Part shown: in pieces, positions 4,691-62,931 of the stretch
Layout of the letters: each line of letters opens with the position of its first letter
Numbering within the stretch: position 1 is the first letter of the stretch
Source of the DNA: the human T2T-CHM13v2.0 reference genome, Homo sapiens
Direction: 5' to 3' (one strand)
Length of the DNA: 64,000 nt
Assembly (NCBI RefSeq): GCF_009914755.1
Contig: NC_060941.1
Notes under the pieces: model-generated
The model's database searches: none
What the model saw: only the letters and a program-made list of their open reading frames with translations
Told to the model about the DNA's origin: nothing
Made by a program: the position numbers and the translations under genes

Positions 4691-5706
<1,016 letters not shown>

Positions 5707-6109
5707 CTAATATTTGTATTCTTAGTAGAGATGGGGGTTTCACCATGTTGGCCAGGCTGGTCTCGAATTCTTGACCTTGTGATCCGCCCGCCTTGGCCTC
5801 CCAAAGTGCTGGGATTACAGGTGTGAGCCACTGCGCCCGGCCTATTCCTTTACTTTCTTAATAAACTTGCTTTCACTTTACTCTGTGGACTTGCCCTGAA
5901 TTCATTCTTGGGTGAGATCCAAGAACCCTCTCTTTGGGACCCATTTCCAGTAACAATCTTAGTGTTTTTGGTTTTTTTTTTTCCCTAATTTTAGAAAACT
6001 TCAAAGATATATGTAAATATATACAATAGGAAAATGAAGCCCATGTACCTGTATCGTGGCTGAGGAGTTTGGTTTTCTTTTCATTAAAAAAAATTAAATG
6101 TACTGTTTA

Positions 6110-7937: not shown

Positions 7938-12863
<4,926 letters not shown>

Positions 12864-26698: not shown

Positions 26699-29042
26699 TT
26701 GAGTCAGCCTCTCTTTACAGCCTTCTGTCACCCCAGGTCCTGCCCACCTCAGATCATGCTTGCATCCTGACTTTGGCCACAATCCTTCCCATCCAGAGAC
26801 TCAGTTTCCTGCATCCACAGAGAGCAGGTTTGGGACTTTTCTCCTAGGAATCAAGGTAAGAGGCAGCCTCTTGTGACCCATGTCAAACATTTATTCTGCT
26901 TTCTGCATGGTCATGGAGTTCCCCAATCTGACTGTGCCACTTACAGACAGAAAGAAATCAAGAGATGTCACTATAGCAAGCCAGCAAGAGACCTTTGTCT
27001 CTGATGGTTCTTGATGGTACTTCTTGAGCTCCAGTGGTGCAGCTGTGCATCCCAGTCTGGCCCTCACCTGGTCCTCATGTGTGGCCCTTTTTACATCTCC
27101 AACCCATTGCCTCTGCTGTTCCTTTCCAGGGATGCTCTTCTTGCTTCTCTGCCTGGTAAGCTCCTACTGGTCCTTAAAAGTCCAGTCTCAAAATCACCTC
27201 CTCTGAGAGGCCTTCCTTATCCCCACCCAGATGGAGATGGCTGCATCACCCAGGCACCCTCCTGGGACTTTTGCTCATGCATCTATTTATAGCACTCACA
27301 TGGAGTTTTGTGATTCCTGAGCTGTTTATCGGGCTCCTGACTAATCCCCAAACTCCTTGTATGCGAGGGCCTGTCTGAGTCATCTGGCCGCCAAGGAGGT
27401 TGGCACGGGACTGGAGTCGCTTCACCCTGGTCTGTGGATGCTTTCCTCCTTCCTTTTTTCATTCCTCAAATATTTATCAGGCACCTACTATGTGCCTGGT
27501 TCTGGGCTATGCATTGGGAACACAGCAGGGAATGAGGCTCGGATGGTCTGGAGGGAGAGCTGTGTTAAAAACTGAGTCAGTAACAAAGACATCAGCAGCA
27601 TAAGTGTTGTGCCTCAGTCTGGGGACCATGATGAGAAGGCCTCTTAGGGGTGTTCATTTAGGAAGCGGTCTGAGGGATGAGAGGGAACCAGCCCCAGGAG
27701 GCTTGAGTGGAAGAATGTTCTGGGCAGGAGCAGCAAGGGTGAAGCTGCTGCGGCAGGACCATCCCTGGCACATTTGAGGGGCAATACTGAGACTCTTGAA
27801 CATCCCAAGAAGCAGAGTGCACAAGGCGGAGTGTGGCCTTGTGCAGAAGTCAAGGCTGTTGGCCAGTGCCTGAACCCAGAAAACTCGCTGGACTAGCCTT
27901 GCAGTTCTGGTAGAAAGGAAGCTGCTCCTGGATGCCCATTTTACAGATGGATAAGCACAGGTCACCAGGGATGATATGGCAAGGATGGAGGCAGCCCACA
28001 GTGTTTTCAAACTCACATTTCCTGGGCACCTAGTGAGTGCCAAGCCCTAGGCCAGGTGTTTCCACTCCTGAACTCATGAAACGCTTTCAGAGACCTTATT
28101 GTCCCCATGGGATAGGTAAACTGAGGCACAGAGCTGCTCAGTGACTTCTTTAAGGTCATCCAGCTAGTAAGTGGAGGAATTGGTATTGGAACCCATACCT
28201 ATCTGAGCCCCAGACTCATGATTTTCCATCCCACTGCCTGGGAAGGGTGAACAGGAGACGCAGGAAGAGAATGGTGATGGCTGCAAGGCTTCCCTCTTAT
28301 CTCCTGTGGCTCCCCACTCTGTGCATGGGGCCCTGCATCACCCCCACTTTACACCTGGGCAAGCAGAGGTCAGGCCCGGCCTCAAGCCTTTCTAGCAGGT
28401 GGTGGAATCTGCTTCCCTCACGTGAGGTCCCTGACAGGGTACACATGTCTGCCTGGAGGCCAGGGGCTGACCCCTTGACCTTTGCCTGGTACATTCTGCC
28501 TTCACTAGCCCTGGCTTTACATCCAGAGTCATCTGTTCCCAGCGCCAGATTGGTCAGCGGTTCCTGAAATCCCCCGAGGTTCCGTGTGGGAGCAGAGGGA
28601 GGACTGGCCCATCCAGCCATTATGCAGATGGGCAGACTGAGATCCTAGGAGGAGAGGAGAGAACGAAGGTCCAGGAGAGAGCCAGGATGGGGCCTCGGGG
28701 CTCGCGGGATAAAATGCACCGCATGCCGCCTCACTCCCTCTGAGACACGGTTTCCCCCTGTGTAGAACAGGGGCAGCAGTAACCAGCCACGAAAACTCCT
28801 CGTGCTGCCTCGTCACCGGGCATCGCTGAGCTCACCACCGACCCCGCGCCCTGGCCGGGCGCCTGGAGCGCGGGCGCGGGCGACGTTTGCTGGCGCCAGG
28901 CCCTCAGTGCGTGTTAGCGAGCAGCGCCGGGAGATAGCTGTCACCGCCGCCCGCTCACAGATGCGTAGACTGAGGCTCAGGTGTCACCACCTGACCAAGG
29001 CTAGTTCCGCTACAAAGCTGCCGACTCGGATCCGAACCCGGG

Positions 29043-29136
29043 TCCAATTTACAGAAAAGGAAACTGAGGCCCAGAGACACTAGGGAGCTTGCTAGGGTGA
29101 GGCAGCTGCAGGTTCAGAGAGCCAGGAGGCAGCCCA
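29043..29136 (+). repeat. Left arm of 94-bp inverted repeat (MIR-derived)
   Basis: 90/94 identical to the reverse complement of 30903-30996. Confidence 0.95.
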
Positions 29137-29681
29137 GCAGCGCACTTTTAACCCCCGCCCACTTCGGCAGGCCCAGCCGTGCCACCTTTAGGGATCTCGG
29201 GTTTTTTCCAGACGACGCACCCAGGAGAACGCGCCCGCGCATCGCACCCGCCGGGGCTGCGGGTCTGGGGTTGCCGGGCTGGGCCTGGGCGCCTGCAGGG
29301 AGCAGCGGGCTCAGTGGGTCCCGGGAGTGGGTGGGGCTTGCATGTTGACGGGCAGCGCGAGGGGCGCGGCTTTAGTCCAGGGGGCGGAGCCTGACCGGAC
29401 CTGGGTTTTTCGGGCGGCTGGCGGACTTGACAGAGAGCGGGAGGGGCCCGGATCCTGGGCCTAAGGAGGGTGGGGCGTGTGCTTGACAGGCAGGGACAGG
29501 CCGGCGTCTGATAGGCAGAGGACGGGCCTTGGAAACGAAAGGACCAATCGGGCACGCAGGGGCGGGGCCTGAGTCAGCGCAGTTCGGCCGGGGTCTCCCC
29601 GGCGCTGCCCAGTCTGTCTCCGGCGCCGCCCGTCGCGGACTCGTCCTTGCTGCAGTCGCCGCCGCAGTCCTCGCCGCAGTC

Positions 29682-29705
29682 GCCGCCGCCGCCGCCGCCG
29701 CCGCC
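29682..29705 (+). repeat. (GCC)8 in the 5'UTR
   Basis: Direct count. Preceded by degenerate GCAGTCGCCGCC units. Confidence 0.95.
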
Positions 29706-29744
29706 GCTGCTCCTCCGCCTGGCCTGGGCCGTCTGCCCGCAGCC

Positions 29745-29789
29745 ATGAGCGTGCTCGGCCCCGGTGGAGCCCGCAGTCCTCTAGATTAG
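29745..29789 (+). promoter_or_regulatory. uORF MSVLGPGGARSPLD
   Basis: GCCATGA start (G at -3). TAG ends 31 nt before the main ATG. Confidence 0.7.
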
Positions 29790-29820
29790 TCTCCACCGCC
29801 GTCCAGGACCCACTTGCAGC

Positions 29821-29869
29821 ATGGAGTCGCCCGCCTCGAGCCAGCCCGCCAGCATGCCCCAGTCCAAAG
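29821..29869 (+). CDS. MAP2K3: MAP2K3 exon 1 CDS (MESPASSQPASMPQSK)
   Basis: Strong Kozak AGCATGG. Donor AAG|GTAGGC. Confidence 0.97.
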
Positions 29870-30902
29870 GTAGGCGCTCCCGGCCGGGACCTCGGCCTGA
29901 CCCCGCGCCTAATCTGGGGCCGGGCTGCAAACCCCGACCTTTCTTTGGTCCCACCCCATCCTGTTCTCGACCTGGCAGCGGCGTCCGGTCCCGGAACCCC
30001 TTCCTGTTCGGGGTCCCGGGACCAGCCCCCGCCTGGGCCCTCACCTGGACCCCCACGTTAGGCCTTGGGACTGCACTCAGGCCCGAGATCACCCAGGCTG
30101 GACCCAGACTAGGACTTTGTTCTGCTCACCCCATCCAAGTCAGGAGCCTCATTCTGACCTCATTTGGGCCTTATGGCTGCAGCCTGGACATGAACTCTCC
30201 CAGTCTTCTCCCTCAGCGGGACCCAGGTGAGATTCACACTGGCCTTCACCTGGGTCCTTGGGCAGCACCCAGTCCCATTTCTAGCTTCGGGTCCCAGGGC
30301 TGTATCCAGGTTGGGATTTAACTTGAGTCTCCATCTGGGCCCCAGAGTGCTCCTGTTGTTGCGGACCTCACTGTACCCCCTATGCGGGTGCTCTGGCTAC
30401 ACCCCAGCTCGGAACTCCCCGTCCTTCTCTCCCCCAGCTCTTCTTATCCTTATAGGCCCTATGTTGCCCCTTCCCTGGCTGGCCTGCACCCTGTCCTGCA
30501 GCCCTGGGCTCCCAGGAACCTTCCTTGTCCTCCCACCCCTCCCTAAGGTACAGCCCCCTCTCTACCGGCCTCTCTCTGTCTTGAGTTGCAAGCTTCTCCC
30601 TGCACTGGGGGTTCTCACCCCATCTTATTCTTGTCCTGGCTGCCTGGGATCTGGGCCAGCCGCCAGGCCAGGGTGCTGGCTGTGCAAGGGATTTGCTCTT
30701 CTCCAAGTAGCTGGCCTTCCTGGAAATTTTTGTGAGGTGGCAGCAGCAGGATTTGTCATGCGGAGGGGGAAGGATGAAACTCGGAGGGCAAAAGGGGAAT
30801 TTTTTTTTTTTTCAGGAAGAGGAAAGGATGTTTTTGGTGCGTCGGAGTTTCAGTAGGCTGGGTTGTGCGAGAGATTTCCAAACCGGACATAGCCGTAATG
30901 AA

Positions 30903-30996
30903 TGGGCTGCCTCCTGGCTTTCTGAACCTGCAGCTGCTTCACCCCAGCAAGCTCCCTGGTGTCTCTGGGCCTCAGTTTCCTTTTCTGTAAATTGGA
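30903..30996 (-). repeat. Right arm of 94-bp inverted repeat, inside a longer MIR (~30903-31110)
   Basis: GGGCCTCAGTTTCCTTTTCTGTAAA MIR core. MIR-like sequence continues to GCACCTGGCGCAGAG..GTGCTCA. Confidence 0.9.
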
Positions 30997-32854
30997 AGTA
31001 ATCGCACCTGCTTCTGTGGACGTGGGAGTGTGGTGTGGGGTGGTGAATAGTAAAGAGCTCTGAGGCGTTCTCTCAGCGTAGCACCTGGCGCAGAGCCGGT
31101 GCTCACCAGGGTACACTGGCTGCACACATCTCGCTATTGTTTCCATTCTTCTTGCTGGAAAGGCCTCCACTGCTGGAAGTGCAGCCGCAGAGTGAGCAGG
31201 AGGAAGCACCTAGCAGCGGGCACCTAGTGGGCACTTCATCAGGGGTCAGCCGCTCTTCTGTTCTGGAGGGTGCAGGCCAATGGGAGCCCTATGTGGGCCT
31301 GGGGAGGGCATGGGCTCTTCCTGGCCCCTGCTGCTGGCTGCTATGGTGGCTGGAGCCGGGTGGGCTGGATAATTATGCCTTACATAAGTGGGAGGCCGGA
31401 TCCCTGACCATTGCCCAACCACTGTGAGTAACTCGGGAGGCACTCGACGGGGGAGGTGTCTGGGGAGGGACTTGCACTGCACAGACCTCGTGGAGCTTGG
31501 GAACCAGGAAATCAGACACTTCTCCACTCTGGAGAGCTCGGGGAAGGGTAGGAAGCACTGTTTGTTTTGGAGGCTTTTTAGCTCTCCAGGCAGAGAATGC
31601 CTCATCAAAATAAAAGTTCCAGTTGCAGAGTTGTGAAAGGAGAGGGGTCATAGATGCAGTGAGAATGCTGTGAGAGGGCCAAAATGAACTTCTAGATGTG
31701 GACCCAGGTCCTAGATGAGGTTGAGGGGGCTGGATGGAGGGTCAGGGACCTCCCTCAGGCCCAGGGACTCTGTAGTCTCTTTGGGGTCTGGGGAAGGATG
31801 TGGTGGCAGAGCCACAATGCCCTTCACCAAAAACCCTATGAGCTCCTTCTTTTTTTCCATGTGCCATGCATTTTCTCATTTATTCCTCATAGCCCCATTT
31901 ACTGATAAGGAAACTGAGGCGTTAAGTGCCTTGCCTGAGGCCACACAGCTGTGACAGGCGGAGCTAGGGTTCCCCCTAGGACTGTGTTTCCACAGTGGCC
32001 TTCCCCGTGCTCCCCTATGTGCCCCTCCCATGCTGGATGCCTGAGCTGAGCTGGTGGGGTGCCCCCACCCCTGGCCTTGCTCAGAGCATGTGCAGTGGGC
32101 CTGTCCTCATGGCCACGTCAGACCTAGAGGACAGACTGAGGCAGAGGTGATGCCTCTCCTGTGCACAGCGCTTTACACTGGGCCTGTTGCATTCTCGCTG
32201 CAAAATCCCACTCATTTGACAGATGCAGAACTCAGCTTGGATGGAGGAGTGGCCGGACTGCCCCCATAGGTGGAGAGCCTCACTCTGTGCCCACCCCATC
32301 CTGGGCACTGGGCCTCCCAGCACTGATCCCTTCTCCACCTTCTCAAAGGAATTTGAACAAAGCAGGGAGTGGCTGGCGCTTGACCTTACTGGAGCTTTAC
32401 CTTTGAGCTTCCTGCCTGGCAGCAGGTGCCCTGCACTGTTTCCATGCCATGGGCCTGGGGAGTTTTCTATGAGTGTGTGAGGCCCTCAGGCCCACAGCTC
32501 TGCTGGTTTTCCCCTGGCCTCCTTGCCCACATGGCCATCTCTGGCTGGGGTTAGAGGCCAAGTGGCTGGCGCTGGGGCCAGTGGGTGGGGGCATGTGTGC
32601 AAGCCACATTTGTCCTTGGAGGGTACCACACGTGTCCTGTTGTCGTTCAGAACATGGGTTCTGCCCCTTCTGCCCTAAGAGTGCCACCTGTGGGAGCACT
32701 TCATGGCTAATCTTCACACAGCTTGGACTGTGGCTGTAGGACTCCTGACTGCCCGATGGTGACACTGAGGTTTCATAGAGCACTGTTGTATCCTAGCCCT
32801 GCCTGCTGTGGCCACCCCCCCAACCCCTGGCTGTCGGAAAGACTGGAGGTGGCA

Positions 32855-35595: not shown

Positions 35596-36536
<941 letters not shown>

Positions 36537-37700: not shown

Positions 37701-40590
37701 TCTGACCGGCATTTTCTTTCTCACACTGCTGTACTCCTGCTGCTCTTGGCTCTTCCTGTCCCTGGGAGGCCACTCCTCGCATCCTGCTGAGGACCTGCAG
37801 GATCCTCACCAATTCCATGTGCCAGCCTTTTGATTCTATAAACCCTGGGCCTCAGTTTCCCCATCTGCAGCATGGAGATCACATTAGTACCTGCCTCAAG
37901 GGGTTGCTGAGAGGATCAAATGAGATGTAATGAAAGAAATTTGCATAGGCCAGGCACGCAGAGGACACCCCAGGACACCCCAGCACATAGTAGGTATTCA
38001 CTAAATGTTAGTGGGTGTTGTAGTGTGGGGGTAAGCTGCTCAACGTGGAATTTCTGGATGCAGAAGAATGGGCATTTTGATGGCCATGGGGCATGGAGGA
38101 CCCAGACCGGTGAGGTCTGGCCATGGGAGGCCAGGCTGCACCCTGATGCCCGCAGCCACCTGCTGTGGGCCCCCTGTCTTTCACGTGCCTTGTGCCCCAG
38201 CCACTCTGCCCGGGGTCCTCCCGTGTTGCCTCCTTCCCTCTCCAGCGAGGCCCGTGCCTCTGGCCCTTCCCTACGTCCTTCCCTCCAAAGCACAAGTGGT
38301 TCCATGTTGCAGGCGGGCCATGGTTGTCTCTGCTGGGCTGTTGGCATTGGGCGGGAGGACCCTCTGGCAGCCATGGTTGCCCCTGTGCAGCTGAGCATCT
38401 GGCCTCCCCACCGGATGTTAGGGGTGCTCCCGAGCCATGCTGGTCCGGAGCATCACCGGGGAGGGGGCGCTGCCAGGTGGATAGTCTGGGGATCCCCCGT
38501 TCTCTGCAGGTGAGGAAGTCCCTGTAGGGTAGAGAGGTGGGGAGGGTGTGAGGCCCTGGAGGCCAGGCCCTGGCCAGGTGGCCTTGCACAGCCGGGCAGA
38601 GGCAGGGCAGGGCTGTGGAGGGCAGAGCCTTGGTCACTCCTCCTCACCCTAGCCTGCTGCACACCTACAAGGTGAGGATAGAGAAGGTAGGGCCTGCAGT
38701 GGCCGTGTATGAGGCCAGATGGCACAGCCTGGGCCTGGCATGGAGCAGGCACTTGGTTAGATGGGAGAACCTTCCCCTTGTCCTGCATCCTCTCCAGAGC
38801 CCAGGACAGGGGCCCCAGAACCTCAGGGCAAGGGGCCCTGCCTGAAGGTGCATGGCCACCCCCTGCTGCCCACAGGTGCTTGGCAGTGGCGTCTGCAGTA
38901 CCTCAGGACCTCTGATGGCACCTGTCCTGGGGAGAGGGGCCAGTGTCTGGCAGGTCGCAGCCAAACACATCCATCCACACCGTCGAGGTACATCTGCCCA
39001 CGCAAAAGCCTGTGCCCACTTCTCGGGGCCTCAGTTTCCCCCGTGCCATGGAGCGCATTGGCCTTGTTGCTGTCCCTCTGAGGGACCCTGGGGAATAGAG
39101 GTGGCCTGGGGCAGGGCGGCGCCTCTTGCTGCTCACATCTCCCAGCCCTTGTGGCTCCTTCCCTGGCAGGCCCAGAACTTCTGCAGTAGAACAGGGACCT
39201 CCTGGAACATCCGGAAGTCAGGTGAGGGCAGTGAACTAGGAGCAGGGATTACTTCTGTTGTCAGAAACCTGGTGATGCTCCTGCATGTGGCATGGTGTGG
39301 GGCTGACTTTATGAGTGGAGGCGGAGCAGGGGCTGCAAGGAGGGGTTGTCATCTTGCCCCTGTGGGTGACCCTTAGAGGGTCACACAGCTTGGTCTCCCC
39401 AGGCCCAGGGTAGAGGGAGCAGCCGAAGTGGGGGCCCTGCCCTCAGGCTGTTGCTGTTTGGACGTTGGAGCCAGACAGACCTGCCTTTATGGCCACTCCT
39501 CACCAGACGCCCACCGTGTGGCCTCTCTAAGTCACCTCTTCTCCCGCATGCTTGATACAACAGATAAGTGAACCTCCCCTACTCCCTTGTGGAGTCACTG
39601 AGAGGGTGGACAGGGGTGGTCTGGGGCTGAGGGTGGTGTTCTCTTGGGAGCTGTGCACTTCCAGATGGCCCCATCTAATCTCCACGCGCCAGGCACTGCT
39701 ATGGCATGACGCTGATAACCCTGGGAGGTTTGTCTGTAATCTCCACTTTACATATGTCCAGAGAGGTGAAGCCACTTGCCTGAGGGCACACAGCTAGGAA
39801 GGGGCAGAGTTGCAGTTGAGCCCAGGCCTTGGCTCCAGAGTGAGTGCTCACAGGTGACCTGCTGACTGGCTCTCTGAGATGGTAACTGCAGAACGGCCAC
39901 CTGTGGGACTCCACAGCAGAGAAGCCATCAGGCCACAGGGAGAGCCGGTCACTGGGGCCTGCGCAGTCAGGCAGCCTCTCTGAACTGGTGAAAGGCAAGA
40001 CGACGTAGCAGCTAGGACAGTCACAGGGAAGAGCATTTCAGGCAGAGGGAAGGGCATGTGTGAAGGCCCTGCGGTGGGAAAGCAGGTGTCTCATTCAGAG
40101 AAGGGCTCACTCAAGGGTCGGGGGCTCTAGTTGGGGGTGAGTGGGAGGAGATAGGGCAGAGCTGCCACGGCCAGTGAGAGTTGTGTTCTAGTCTGGGGGT
40201 GCCTCTCTTTACCTGTGGTGTAGCCTCAGGTCAGTGGCTGAATTCTGGTCAGTTTCAGTTTCCTTGCCCCTGCCTGGGGGCTGCTATGAGGCTGGAGTAT
40301 GTGGAGGACACCCCAGGACACCCCGTGCTGAGAGCCGGGACAGGCGGGCTTATCGTGGGTTGCCAGTGGCCGCCGAGAGCCTCTGTTTGTTGTGGTGATG
40401 GTTGCCACAACGGCTGCACCTGGGCAGCCCTGGGCTGCCTGGCCATCTGGGCCCAGCTCTGACGTCTGCAGCAGCCTGAGGCCTGTTTCTAGGCTGTCTC
40501 CATGACGGCCTCACCCACTCCCTCTGACAGCTGGGTGGCTTCCCCATGGAGCCTGTGGCCCTCCTGATGCAGGCTCGGTGTCCCCAACAG

Positions 40591-49343: not shown

Positions 49344-49471
49344 ATGTGAAGCCCTCCAATGTCCTTATCAACAAGGAGGGCCATGTGAAGATGTGTGACT
49401 TTGGCATCAGTGGCTACTTGGTGGACTCTGTGGCCAAGACGATGGATGCCGGCTGCAAGCCCTACATGGCC
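49344..49471 (+). CDS. MAP2K3: Exon 8 (DVKPSN, DFG, activation loop DSVAKT)
   Basis: TGGCAG| ... |GTGAGT. Confidence 0.98.
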
Positions 49472-49968
49472 GTGAGTGGTCCCCAAGCCCCCCAGGCTCA
49501 GGAGAGGATGGGGCGGGGAGAGATCTGCCCAGGCTGGCCACCCCGGCCATACCCTCTGTCCGTAGGGGCAGAGCCTCCCCACACTGCGTTTCCTGCTGTA
49601 GTGGGGCCACCTGTGTCTTGCTGCCCAGGGGCAGCCCTTCTGTACCCCGTTGTTAACTGACCCCCACAGTGCCCCAGTTGGGTGATAAGCTCATGGACCA
49701 CCTCTGCGGAGGACACTGGTGGGCTGTGCAGGTCCCGCCCCGCCCTCATTGTCAGGAGGGCCTTAGGGGCCTGCTCCCGGGTAGGGTCAGACCGATGCAA
49801 GGGTTGGGCCTTCTAAGCATGACCCAAGCCCTCCTAGCCTCAGTTTCCTCCCCCGTCACATGGGCAGGTGGGCTAAGCTGAGCGCTCAGTTTGGGGATTG
49901 GGAGGCAAGGCCTAGCCATGGGGGCTTACCTGGGGCGGGTGTTCACGCCTCACTCTTCCCTCCTGCAG

Positions 49969-50046
49969 CCTGAGAGGATCAACCCAGAGCTGAACCAGAA
50001 GGGCTACAATGTCAAGTCCGACGTCTGGAGCCTGGGCATCACCATG
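49969..50046 (+). CDS. MAP2K3: Exon 9 (PERINPELNQKGYNVKSDVWSLGITM)
   Basis: CTGCAG| ... |GTACTG. Confidence 0.98.
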
Positions 50047-50939
50047 GTACTGTGGGGGGCCAGGGCCTGCCCTTGGTGGTCAGGTGGGGTGGGTGGAGCC
50101 GTGCCTGGGGCCCTGAGCTTTTGGGGGACTCATCAAATAGTTTAGGTTCTGGAAAGAAGTATTGGCTTCAAAATCTGAGAAGAAAATGTGCCATCAGAAA
50201 TTACCATCTATTTAAGGGAACCTCCTAGGGTCAGGGTCACTCATCGTGAAGTCCTGGGTGCTTTGTGATATGGTGGCCACAGGGCTTTCTCTGGAGTTCT
50301 TGGTGCTTGTTGAGAAATCACAGCCAATCCCAAATTACGTAAGTTCCTGGTATGTAAATCATGCAAAAGCAAGATGGTAAAGATCTTTTCAAAAATATTT
50401 CATAGCAGAAGGTTTGTTGTCGGTGGCGTCCTGGTACATTGCGGTGGGGTGGTAGAAAGGGTGGGCGGGCTCTCAATCCTGGGCCTGTGGAAGCCAAAGG
50501 CATCCCTGGCTTGGGTAGGGTGAGGGCAGATGTGGCAGAAGTCCGAAGTCCAGGTGTAGGGATGGGCCCAGAGCAGTTGCTTCTGGAGTTGCCTGGCAGA
50601 ACCCCATGCCTTCCGTGTTGGGGCTCAGGTCAAGGTGTGGGTGAGCCCGCTCTGGCTCCCCTGTGGACAGTGGATTGGAGGGATGGGAAGACCACCAGGA
50701 TGTGTCCCCCAGCCAGGGCTAGGAAGCTGTGCAGGAGACGCGTGGAAGGACGATGCCATCAGCAGGTCGGGCTCAGGCTGGTGGCCTTGGCCAGTTGAGT
50801 GGCTTGGGACCAATGGAGTGTCCTGGGCGTCAGCTCCTTCCCTGCCCAGGGAAGCCTGGCCCAGGACATTCCTGCTTGTCCCTAGTCCCTTTGACTGTTT
50901 GGTGTTGGGGATGAGGCCGTCAGATAGAATCAGTAAGAT

Positions 50940-52275
50940 GTGGTGAGAAGCGCTGGCGGGGTGTTTTCCAACACCGCAACCCATTCTCGGATTCTCCAGA
51001 CACCCACCCAGTGCCCTGCAGTTCCGTTCGGTTCTGATGCTACCTGGAGTTCGCACAGACCCCACAGGTTAAGGGCTCTGTCCCACCAGACTGCCCCCAA
51101 CATCACACACCAGTTGGAAGTAGCGGGTCTCCCATACTACTGGACTGACCAGCTACAAATTGGGGGTCCCCATGACCCTCTCGTAAGGTTTGATAATTTC
51201 CTAGAATGGCTCACAAAACTCAGGGAAACACTTTATTTGTGTTTACTGGTTTATCAGAAAGGATATAACTCAGGGCCAACCAGATGGAAGAGACTCACGG
51301 GGGAGGGGTGTGAGTGTGGGGTGCAGAGCTGCCGTGCCCTCTCAGGGCCTGGCACCCTCCTGGTACCTCCCTGTGCTTGCGAACCTACAGGCTTCTCAAG
51401 CTCATGGAATTTTGTTGTTTTTGACACAGAGTCTCACTTTGTCACCCAGGCTGGAATGCAGTGGCACAATCTTAGCTCACCGTAACCTCTGCCTCCTGGG
51501 TTCAAGCGATTCTTGTGCCTCAGCCTCCCGAGTAGCTGGGATTACAGGCACCACCATGCCCAGCTGATTTTTGTATTTTTAGTGGAGATGGGGTTTTGCC
51601 ATGTTGGCGAGGCTGGTCTTGAACTCCTGACCTCAAGTGATCTGCCCGCCTCAGACTCGCAAAGTGCTGTGATTACAGGCATGAGCCACCACGCCCAGCC
51701 TCACATGGAGAGGTTTTTTGTGAGAGAGGGTCTCACTCTGTTGCTCAGGCTGGAGTGCAGTGGTATCATCGCAGCTCACTGCAGCCTTGAACTCCCAGGC
51801 TCAAGCCATCCCCCTACCTCAGTCTCCTGAGTAGCTGGAACTACAGGTGTGTGCCCCTATGCCCAGCTACTTTTTTAATGTTTTGTAGAAAAGGGGTCTC
51901 ACTATGTTGCCCAGGCTGGTCTTGAAATCCTGGGCTCAAGCAATCTGCCTACCTCGGCCTCCCAAAGTGCTGGGATTATAGGCACAAGCTACTGCACCCA
52001 CTGAAAGTTTTTATAGAGCACAGTCTCCAGGCCCCCCTCCTCTCAGCATCAGTTGGCGGGTGATGCTGAGAGTTCCCACCCTCTATAATCAGCTGGGTTT
52101 TCTGGGGAGCAGCCCCATCTGAGGCTGTCTAGGGGCCTTACCCTGAGTCACCTCATTAGCATAAACTCAGGCTCCTTGTGGATAACAAAGCCACTCCTGT
52201 CACTCAGGAAATTCCAAGGGTTTTAGGAGCTCCATGCCAGGAACAAAGACCAAATAAATTCCTTTTTATGCCATG
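50940..52275. mobile_element. MER21-like LTR interrupted by two antisense Alus (~51411-52000)
   Basis: CAGACCCCACAGGTTAAGGGCT, CTAGAATGGCTCACAAAACTCAGGGAAACACTT and CAGGAAATTCCAAGGGTTTTAGGAGCTC resemble MER21 as recalled. Confidence 0.7.

Positions 52276-62385: not shown

Positions 62386-62931
<546 letters not shown>

What the first reader, a model, noticed from the sequence alone, without database searches (positions are those of the whole stretch)
29043..30996. 94-bp near-perfect inverted repeat caging the MAP2K3 core promoter and exon 1
Seen: 29043-29136 equals the reverse complement of 30903-30996 at 90/94 positions. All four mismatches are transitions and the outer 38 bp are perfect. The 1766-bp spacer holds the CCAAT/GC/AP-1 boxes, uORF, start codon and exon-1 donor. 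Established: the arms carry a MIR core, and independent MIR copies are far more diverged than 4%, so a recent copy or gene-conversion event is required. The right arm lies in a longer MIR, so the left looks like the copy. Inference: either a templated-insertion scar or arms homogenised by pairing or recurrent inversion. An inversion would flip the MKK3b promoter and exon 1 while sparing the intronic promoter for the docking-motif-less isoform, i.e. a potential invertible isoform switch. Caveat: 94 bp is short for homologous recombination.
Basis: partly seen in the sequence, partly recalled or inferred. Interest (0 to 1): 0.8.

Follow-up and report, generated by a model that had tools for sequence, protein, structure and literature searches.

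The report
Short inverted copy flanking MAP2K3 promoter
A 94-base piece of an ancient repeat in MAP2K3 intron 1 was copied, in reverse orientation, to a spot upstream of the gene's promoter, most likely as a one-off DNA-repair scar from primate evolution and not a switch that flips the promoter.

Summary
29043-29136 equals the reverse complement of 30903-30996 at 90 of 94 positions, with four non-CpG transitions and sharp edges. This is not chance. In a MIR profile built here from 109 other copies, 3,059 pairs of independent MIR copies average 58% identity (maximum 82%), while the arms reach 97% and share 15 departures from the consensus. Nothing else in the CHM13 genome matches an arm full-length.

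The right arm sits in register inside a longer minus-strand MIR. The left arm abuts the end of a different plus-strand MIR (model position 231 next to 134) and is a CpG-free patch in a CpG island. So the copy most likely ran right to left, as one templated insertion or ectopic repair event, roughly 10-44 Myr ago with a very wide interval.

The invertible-switch idea has no support here. Only one orientation could be seen, the longest perfect block is 38 nt, and the known paralogue does not hold this region. Cross-species and pangenome tests could not be run. This is an ordinary kind of event at a notable place. Interest is low to moderate.

The parts
29043..29136 (+). Left arm: the derived 94-nt copy. 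It is MIR-core sequence (profile positions about 134-213, plus 16 nt that do not align) and a CpG-free patch in the CpG-island shore, 444-475 nt upstream of the annotated transcription starts at 29580 and 29611.
   Evidence: 90 of 94. (profile E 3.7e-10). (local score 57, 0 of 500 shuffles reach it). (0 CpG in 94 nt against 22 and 19 per 194 nt in the flanks). (distances).
30903..30996 (-). Right arm: the probable donor segment, lying in MAP2K3 intron 1, 1034 nt past the exon-1 donor.
30922..31094 (-). The longer minus-strand MIR that holds the right arm (nhmmer envelope). The aligned core is 30941-31039, profile positions 97-190, and runs without a break across the arm's outer edge at 30996/30997.
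   Evidence: E 4.4e-13. In one search, 4 of 5 hits of this element to other MIR copies reach 16-41 nt beyond the arm edge. In one search, the far flank hits window 10081-10156, about in register with a MIR core. The flank alone against the consensus is not significant (362 of 1000 shuffles).
28929..29042 (+). Older plus-strand host MIR. Its alignment to the profile (positions 111-231) ends exactly at the left arm's outer edge, so the profile register jumps from 231 back to 134 at 29042/29043.
   Evidence: score 59, 0 of 500 shuffles reach it. (E 7e-4 for 28929-28980).
29137..30902 (+). The 1766-nt spacer. It holds the CpG-island promoter of the MKK3b transcript (CCAAT 29544, AP-1-like TGAGTCA 29570, GC boxes), exon 1 (29580 or 29611 to 29869; uORF from 29745; ATG 29821 encoding residues 1-16) and the first 1033 nt of intron 1.
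   Evidence: plus the gene table supplied with the finding.

Best explanation
The pair is the product of one non-reciprocal copying event. A 94-nt stretch of an old minus-strand MIR in intron 1 (the right arm) was used as template, and its copy was laid down in reverse orientation about 1.8 kb away, at the 3' edge of a different, plus-strand MIR upstream of the MAP2K3 CpG-island promoter.

The likeliest mechanism is repair of a break, or restart of a stalled fork, by copying a nearby template. That means a templated insertion ('patch') joined by end-joining, or a switch-and-return of the nascent strand. After the event the two copies diverged by four transitions.

Shown: the copy relationship, the sharp edges, the direction from right to left, and the absence of any other copy in the genome. 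Inferred: the repair mechanism, the age (order of 10-44 Myr, interval 3-105 Myr), and neutrality. On this reading the repeat is a scar, not a device.
For: Copy relationship:
- The arms are 90 of 94 identical.
- They share 15 differences from a de novo MIR consensus in 59 common columns, and 42 columns equal the consensus.
- 3,059 independent MIR pairs reach at most 82% identity.

Not a young repeat family:
- A whole-genome search with the arm found 4 candidates, all scored: itself, the other arm, 34 nt at 97% and 75 nt at 78%.
- The 2.4-kb region is single copy (10 of 10 candidates scored).

Direction:
- MIR homology runs in register through the right arm's outer edge.
- At the left arm's outer edge, profile position 231 of another MIR meets position 134.
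- The left arm has 0 CpG in 94 nt inside flanks with 41 CpG in 388 nt (Poisson P = 5e-5), as expected for an import from outside the island.

Insertion type:
- There is no poly(A) and no target-site duplication at the edges (direct reading). This fits the end-joining class of templated insertions described in PMC5110952 (passages read), not the LINE-1 class.
- Reverse-complement copying by template switching is an established mutation type (PMC5453318, passages read).

Frequency: in 264 kb of contiguous sequence this is one of only 2 low-copy pairs at 93% or more over 60 nt or more, out of 12 such pairs. The other is a tandem duplication.
Against: - The pre-insertion allele was not seen, so insertion versus replacement, and any junction microhomology (which would be hidden inside the arm ends), are unknown.
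- My test of whether the host MIR continues beyond the arm failed. The post-arm flank shows no MIR signal: 450 of 500 shuffles score as high, and searches found nothing.
- The right arm's outer flank, tested alone against the consensus, is not significant (362 of 1000). The direction therefore rests on alignments that include arm bases, one in-register hit at E 0.34, and the CpG argument.
- 94 nt copied from 1.8 kb away is longer and more distant than the short local template switches modelled in PMC5453318.
- Neutrality is assumed, not tested. The supplied RefSeq table places the left arm inside reporter-assay 'enhancer' (28683-29183) and 'silencer' (29070-29599) intervals.
Confidence: 0.68

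Rival explanations
1. Concerted evolution. Two old, oppositely oriented MIR-derived segments have been kept alike by repeated gene conversion or template switching between the arms (quasi-palindrome correction), so the pair may be much older than its 4% divergence suggests.
For: Both arms lie in MIR-rich DNA, and the left arm adjoins another MIR. Homogenisation of imperfect inverted repeats by template switching is described in yeast (PMC8604942, abstract only, seen in the listing). Close spacing relaxes the length needed for exchange: exchanges over matching stretches under 50 bp are reported between alpha-globin repeats 5 kb apart (PMC2583991, passages).
Against: At the left outer edge the neighbouring sequence is not in MIR register (231 meets 134), so there is no pre-existing homologous acceptor there. 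Flanks share no similarity, whereas conversion normally needs high flanking similarity. Typical MIR-MIR identity of 58% is far too low to start it. The four mismatches are spread in a way compatible with simple divergence (P = 0.18). At two of them (positions 52 and 77) the left arm carries the consensus base by my reading of the alignment, so the donor has changed since the copy.
Confidence: 0.12
2. Regulatory duplication. The copy brought a transcription-factor site to the promoter-proximal region and has been kept for that reason. Each arm carries GAAAAGGAAACT, which fits the interferon-response core GAAANNGAAACT (consensus recalled, not from a tool).
For: The 12-mer occurs only three times in the 64-kb window, two of them in the arms (29054-29065 plus strand, 30974-30985 minus strand). 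In the 264 kb of the sample that was not chosen for likeness to the arm (the masked window plus L009-L028), it occurs twice, neither time in a MIR hit. The left arm lies in RefSeq reporter-assay intervals (supplied table).
Against: There are no binding or expression data. The motif is a two-base variant of the ordinary MIR core and recurs in the three MIR copies that were fetched because they resemble the arm (L004-L006). Four substitutions in 94 nt show no sign of constraint. I ran no search on interferon regulation of MAP2K3, so nothing can be said from the literature.
Confidence: 0.08
3. Invertible isoform switch. Recombination between the arms flips the MKK3b promoter and exon 1. This silences the docking-competent isoform and leaves the downstream promoter for the M30-start isoform untouched.
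For: The geometry is right. The arms bracket the promoter, the uORF, the ATG and the donor. Exon 1 supplies the only ATG upstream of the docking motif. The separately cloned 'A' promoter fragment starts 3,353 bp after the start of the 'B' fragment (coordinates in PMC3792696, passages), which places it beyond the right arm wherever the B fragment is set over the transcription start. Exchanges on matches under 50 bp are on record for repeats 5 kb apart (PMC2583991).
Against: The longest perfect block is 38 nt. Estimates of the minimal efficient processing segment are 300-500 bp in human meiosis, and recombination in cultured mouse cells fell 20-fold when the longest uninterrupted match was cut from 232 to 134 bp (PMC2583991 and PMC3966225, passages). 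No site-specific recombinase system is known for such a site in mammals (established knowledge). Only the gene-competent orientation is present in the one assembly searchable. Literature searches for MAP2K3 with 'inverted repeat' (5 papers) and 'inversion polymorphism' (1 paper) turned up nothing about this site.
Confidence: 0.02

Closest known systems
Templated sequence insertions of the end-joining class ('class 2' TSI/TSIP; PMC5110952, passages read)
   Same: An extra copy of a short genomic segment sits at a new site while the donor stays intact. There is no target-site duplication and no poly(A). Either orientation is possible. The donor lies in a transcribed region (intron 1), which would also allow the RNA-templated route those authors propose.
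   Different: Those insertions are described as coming from distant regions, often other chromosomes. Here the donor is 1.8 kb away in the same gene. The junction features that define the class (microdeletion, microhomology, filler bases) cannot be read without the empty ancestral site.
Replication template-switch mutations (four-point model, PMC5453318; FoSTeS/MMBIR for long-range events)
   Same: A single event copies a nearby stretch in reverse complement and so creates an inverted repeat.
   Different: The short-range events modelled there lie within one replication fork, and the authors say they do not model long-range switches (passage). This copy is 94 nt long and 1.8 kb from its template, which falls between that class and the kilobase-to-megabase rearrangements.
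Interlocus gene conversion and NAHR between dispersed repeats
   Same: Sequence passes in one direction between two repeat copies on the same chromosome.
   Different: There is no acceptor in register at the outer edge and no flanking similarity, and the background MIR-MIR identity of about 58% is far below what conversion uses.
MIR (mammalian-wide interspersed repeat, CORE-SINE) fragments
   Same: Both arms match the core of a MIR profile built here from 109 other copies.
   Different: The left arm did not arrive by retroposition. It is a secondary DNA-level copy of one particular MIR, and shares 15 of that copy's private differences from the consensus.

Membership tests
MIR / CORE-SINE derived sequence | Significant similarity to the MIR core | tested here: met
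   The profile was built from 109 hits in 279,256 bases with 28851-31200 masked. Left arm E 3.7e-10, right MIR E 4.4e-13. Local alignment scores 57 and 59, with 0 of 500 shuffles reaching them. The name 'MIR' for this profile is my recognition of the consensus; no repeat library was available.
Templated insertion, end-joining class (class 2 TSI) | Donor intact plus one extra copy elsewhere | tested here: met
   Exactly two copies exist in the genome. The donor MIR is continuous across the arm's outer edge.
Templated insertion, end-joining class (class 2 TSI) | No target-site duplication, poly(A) tail or TTTT/A target (this excludes the LINE-1 class 1) | tested here: met
   The edges read GGG|TCCAATTT and GCAGCCCA|GCAGCGCA. 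There is no A-run and no flank duplication of 5 nt or more across the insert. Class definitions are from PMC5110952.
Templated insertion, end-joining class (class 2 TSI) | End-joining marks at the junctions (microhomology, microdeletion, filler) relative to the empty site | not testable with these tools
   This needs the ancestral or outgroup empty site. No primate or mammal genomes were available.
Interlocus gene conversion | The acceptor already held homologous sequence in register, with similarity continuing in the flanks | tested here: not met
   At the outer edge, profile position 231 abuts 134. Flank identity is 1 of 10, 0 of 10, 10 of 40 and 8 of 40. The inner flank shows no MIR signal, so that edge is inconclusive.
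NAHR-competent inverted repeat / invertible segment | Uninterrupted identity at or above the minimal efficient processing segment | tested here: not met
   The longest perfect block is 38 nt, against 300-500 bp in human meiosis and 134-232 bp in cultured cells. Rare events on matches under 50 bp are reported for repeats 5 kb apart (PMC2583991).
NAHR-competent inverted repeat / invertible segment | Both orientations of the spacer observed | not testable with these tools
   Only one human assembly could be searched, and it holds a single copy in the gene-competent orientation.
Structured RNA or miRNA hairpin | Match to a described RNA family, or both arms within one transcript | tested here: not met
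   An Rfam scan of 28500-31500 found nothing near threshold: the best hits were 19.2 and 17.5 bits against gathering scores of 63 and 38.3, both elsewhere in the spacer. All annotated transcripts start at or after 29580, so the left arm is not transcribed with the right (supplied table).

The most novel reading that the evidence does not exclude
The close spacing (1.8 kb) lets the 94-nt arms recombine or switch templates at a low rate in germline or somatic cells. This would invert the MKK3b promoter with exon 1 and shift output to the M30-start isoform that lacks the p38 docking motif, giving a rare, heritable or mosaic, DNA-level isoform switch in a human kinase gene.
Probability: 0.02. Interest if true: 0.8.

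Novelty: new member of a known kind. Interest (0 to 1): 0.22.

Why it matters
This is a clean, datable example of a mid-sized (94 nt, 1.8 kb away) reverse-complement templated copy. Its size lies between the short local template switches and the large rearrangements usually studied. Donor and recipient can be told apart from one genome alone, by repeat register and CpG content.

It also places a new inverted repeat around a disease-relevant promoter. That is worth one look in pangenome and long-read data and in promoter constructs. If the repeat is neutral, as I expect, the practical value is small: it is an annotation note and a possible source of PCR or mapping artefacts at the MAP2K3 promoter.

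Tried and rejected
1. Host MIR continuing after the arm, which would prove a pure insertion. The post-arm flank 29137-29230 scored below most shuffles (450 of 500). The arm-excised sequence gave no longer profile hit. A separate tail profile from 81 copies found nothing, and single-sequence searches found nothing in register. The de novo profile is weak at the 3' end, so the result is inconclusive.

2. Right outer flank alone against the consensus. This was not significant for positions 56-133 (362 of 1000). A farther stretch aligned to an unexpected part of the consensus (2 of 1000), which I do not use.

3. First profile attempts. One collapsed to an 82-position core and another was noisy. 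One run timed out and was repeated with fewer iterations.

4. MIR-core cluster upstream. Ten profile hits fall in 27000-32500. Similar clusters occur elsewhere: up to 7 hits in 1.3 kb in L027. It is not special.

5. Young repeat family: rejected.

6. Assembly paralogue as a comparison: the region is single copy.

7. Rfam: nothing.

9. Literature. No paper on this repeat was found with 'MAP2K3' + 'inverted repeat' (5 papers; titles and abstract starts read, passages read in one), 'MAP2K3' + 'inversion polymorphism' (1 paper, passages read), 'MAP2K3 promoter' (10 papers listed, passages read in one) or 'MKK3 promoter' + 'NF-Y' (1 paper, passages read). Supplements were not opened.

Full report
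**Observation.**
The repeat is real and sits at the stated coordinates. The repeat finder lists arms 29043-29136 and 30903-30996, 94 nt, 96% complementary, 1766 nt apart. A base-by-base comparison gives 90 of 94. The mismatches are at arm positions 39, 52, 59 and 77. All are transitions and none is in a CpG. There are 38 perfect bases at the outer end and 17 at the inner end.

Similarity ends abruptly. The ten bases outside each edge match at 1 of 10 and 0 of 10, and the forty at 10 of 40 and 8 of 40. The central position of the mismatches is not significant (P = 0.18 for a range this narrow). Four transitions out of four is unremarkable given the usual excess of transitions.

**Is it more than chance?**
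No repeat library was available, so I built a MIR profile from the data. I started from the right-hand element and iterated nhmmer. I then fetched 200 kb of flanking chromosome and rebuilt the model on 279,256 bases in which 28851-31200 of the window was masked. This gave 109 hits and a 305-position model, whose consensus I recognise as MIR.

In the columns occupied by the arm, 3,059 pairs of independent copies have identity 0.583 +/- 0.071. The maximum is 0.82 and no pair reaches 0.9. The arms give 0.966. Each arm is only about 60% identical to the other copies (maximum 0.78). In 59 shared columns the two arms agree with the consensus at 42 and share the same departure from it at 15. They are therefore copies of one another, not two well-kept old elements.

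A whole-genome search of CHM13 with the arm gave four candidates, all scored: itself, the other arm, 34 nt at 97% on C8 and 75 nt at 78% on C5. The 2.4-kb region has no second copy (10 of 10 candidates scored). A young repeat family is thus excluded.

In 264 kb of contiguous sequence, a self-comparison found 12 pairs at 93% or more over 60 nt or more. Only two of these had both members low-copy: this pair and a perfect 65-nt tandem duplication outside the window.

**Which arm is the copy?**
On the right, the profile alignment runs without a break from model position 97 to 190 across the arm's outer edge (window 31039 to 30941, E 4.4e-13, envelope to 31094). When the right-hand element was used as a single query, 4 of its 5 hits to other MIR copies extended 16-41 nt beyond the arm edge into its flank. 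The far flank alone found one hit (E 0.34) lying 107 nt upstream of another MIR core on the same strand, within a few bases of the expected register. The flank alone against the consensus is not significant (362 of 1000 shuffles), so this line of evidence is moderate, not strong.

On the left, the sequence just outside the arm is a different, older plus-strand MIR. 28929-29042 aligns to model positions 111-231 (score 59, 0 of 500 shuffles reach it), and the alignment ends exactly at 29042. The arm then starts again at position 134. A register jump from 231 to 134 is what an inserted piece gives, not a continuous element.

The left arm also has no CpG in 94 nt, although its flanks hold 22 and 19 CpG per 194 nt (observed/expected 0.97 and 0.77). 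At that density about ten would be expected (Poisson P of none = 5e-5). The right arm's surroundings are less CpG-rich (7 and 8 per 194 nt).

**What kind of event?**
There is no A-tail and no target-site duplication, so LINE-1-mediated insertion is out. The criteria are taken from PMC5110952 (passages read).

Gene conversion of a pre-existing in-register MIR is not supported. The outer edge is out of register, the flanks are unrelated, and typical MIR-MIR identity is far too low to start conversion.

What remains is a single templated copy. One route is a patch synthesised from the nearby intron-1 DNA (or from its pre-mRNA, since the donor is transcribed) and joined into a break by end-joining, as in class 2 templated insertions (PMC5110952). 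The other is a switch-and-return of a nascent strand to the opposite-strand template. This is an accepted source of reverse-complement copies, although the published short-range model explicitly does not cover long-range switches (PMC5453318, passages).

I cannot separate these routes. Any microhomology used at the junctions would be hidden inside the arm ends, and the empty site is not available. I tried to show that the host MIR resumes after the arm, which would prove a pure insertion, and could not.

**Age.**
The Kimura distance is 0.0445. Dividing by twice an assumed rate gives about 44, 22 or 10 Myr at 0.5, 1.0 or 2.2e-9 per site per year. The rates are recalled, not from a tool. The exact binomial interval on 4 of 94 stretches this to 3-105 Myr. 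That is far younger than MIR copies are from each other, but the lineage in which the event happened cannot be named without other genomes.

**Function.**
The spacer holds CCAAT (29544), TGAGTCA (29570), GC boxes, a 14-codon uORF from 29745, the ATG at 29821 and the donor at 29870. Exon 1 encodes residues 1-16. The basic docking stretch (KRKKDLRIS) is in exon 2, and the next in-frame Met is residue 30. Loss of exon 1 would therefore give the docking-less protein.

Two promoters, 'B' and 'A', have been cloned and shown active (PMC3792696, passages). By the paper's coordinates the A fragment starts 3,353 bp after the start of the B fragment. That puts it beyond the right arm wherever the 1,018-bp B fragment is set over the transcription start. 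I did no lift-over.

Nothing indicates that inversion happens. The longest perfect block is 38 nt, against estimates of 300-500 bp for efficient meiotic exchange in humans. The same review notes exchanges on matches under 50 bp for repeats 5 kb apart, so rare events are not excluded (PMC2583991, passages; PMC3966225).

The left arm is upstream of every annotated start, so the arms are not in one annotated transcript and an RNA stem is not expected. Rfam finds nothing.

**The paralogue.**
[quoted passage not shown] It also says that the T2T assembly resolves collapsed copies (bioRxiv 10.1101/2021.06.07.444885, passage). In CHM13 I saw one 98% match covering window 49388-51000 at C17:21730682-21732287 on the minus strand. 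Only 38 of 38,031 candidates were scored in that call, so its extent is a lower bound. The promoter interval itself is single copy, so the paralogue offers no second look at the repeat.

**Verdict.**
The event is real and uncommon, and its direction can be inferred. Its kind is known and its most likely meaning is a neutral repair scar. The switch idea stays a long shot that needs data I could not reach.

Noticed in passing
window 29054-29065 (+) and 30974-30985 (-): Each arm carries GAAAAGGAAACT, which fits the interferon-response core GAAANNGAAACT (consensus recalled from memory). The pattern occurs only three times in the 64-kb window; the third is GAAACTGAAACT at 40251 (-). In the 264 kb of the sample not chosen for likeness to the arm, it occurs twice, neither time in a MIR hit.
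   Followed up: partly
window 29129-29144: The last 8 nt of the left arm (GCAGCCCA) are followed at once by GCAGCGCA, a 7-of-8 direct near-repeat at the inner junction. It could be a trace of microhomology at the return junction, or chance. It cannot be resolved without the empty site.
   Followed up: no
window 49388-51000; G000:C17:21730682-21732287 (-): A 98% identical paralogous copy of part of MAP2K3 lies about 0.5 Mb downstream on the same chromosome. Only 38 of 38,031 candidates were scored, so its full extent is unknown. Published work describes duplications from mid intron 1 to the 3' UTR (PMC3792696).
   Followed up: partly
window 27932-29098: Seven MIR-core profile hits fall within 1.2 kb upstream of the promoter, six on the + strand. 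One is a strong, nearly full-length MIR at 28022-28265 (E 1.7e-27). Clusters as dense occur elsewhere in the 279-kb sample (up to 7 hits in 1.3 kb in L027), so this is not exceptional.
   Followed up: yes
window coordinates 114233-114361, outside the window (= G000:C17:21318233-21318361, in L023/L024): A perfect 65-nt tandem duplication. It is the only other low-copy pair at 93% or more over 60 nt or more in the 264 kb surveyed.
   Followed up: no
window 29643-29707: A GC-rich tandem repeat in the 5' UTR of exon 1, with periods of 3, 12 and 24 nt (GCAGTCGCCGCC units running into a (CGC)n tract). It is a possible length-polymorphic tract just upstream of the uORF.
   Followed up: no
window 5426-5485 and 5782-5841: A 60-nt inverted pair at 96.7%, beside the EIF1P5 pseudogene. 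The same 60 nt also match 35863-35922 (93%) and 62412-62462 (92%) inside masked repeats, so these are pieces of a young multi-copy repeat and not a unique copy event.
   Followed up: partly
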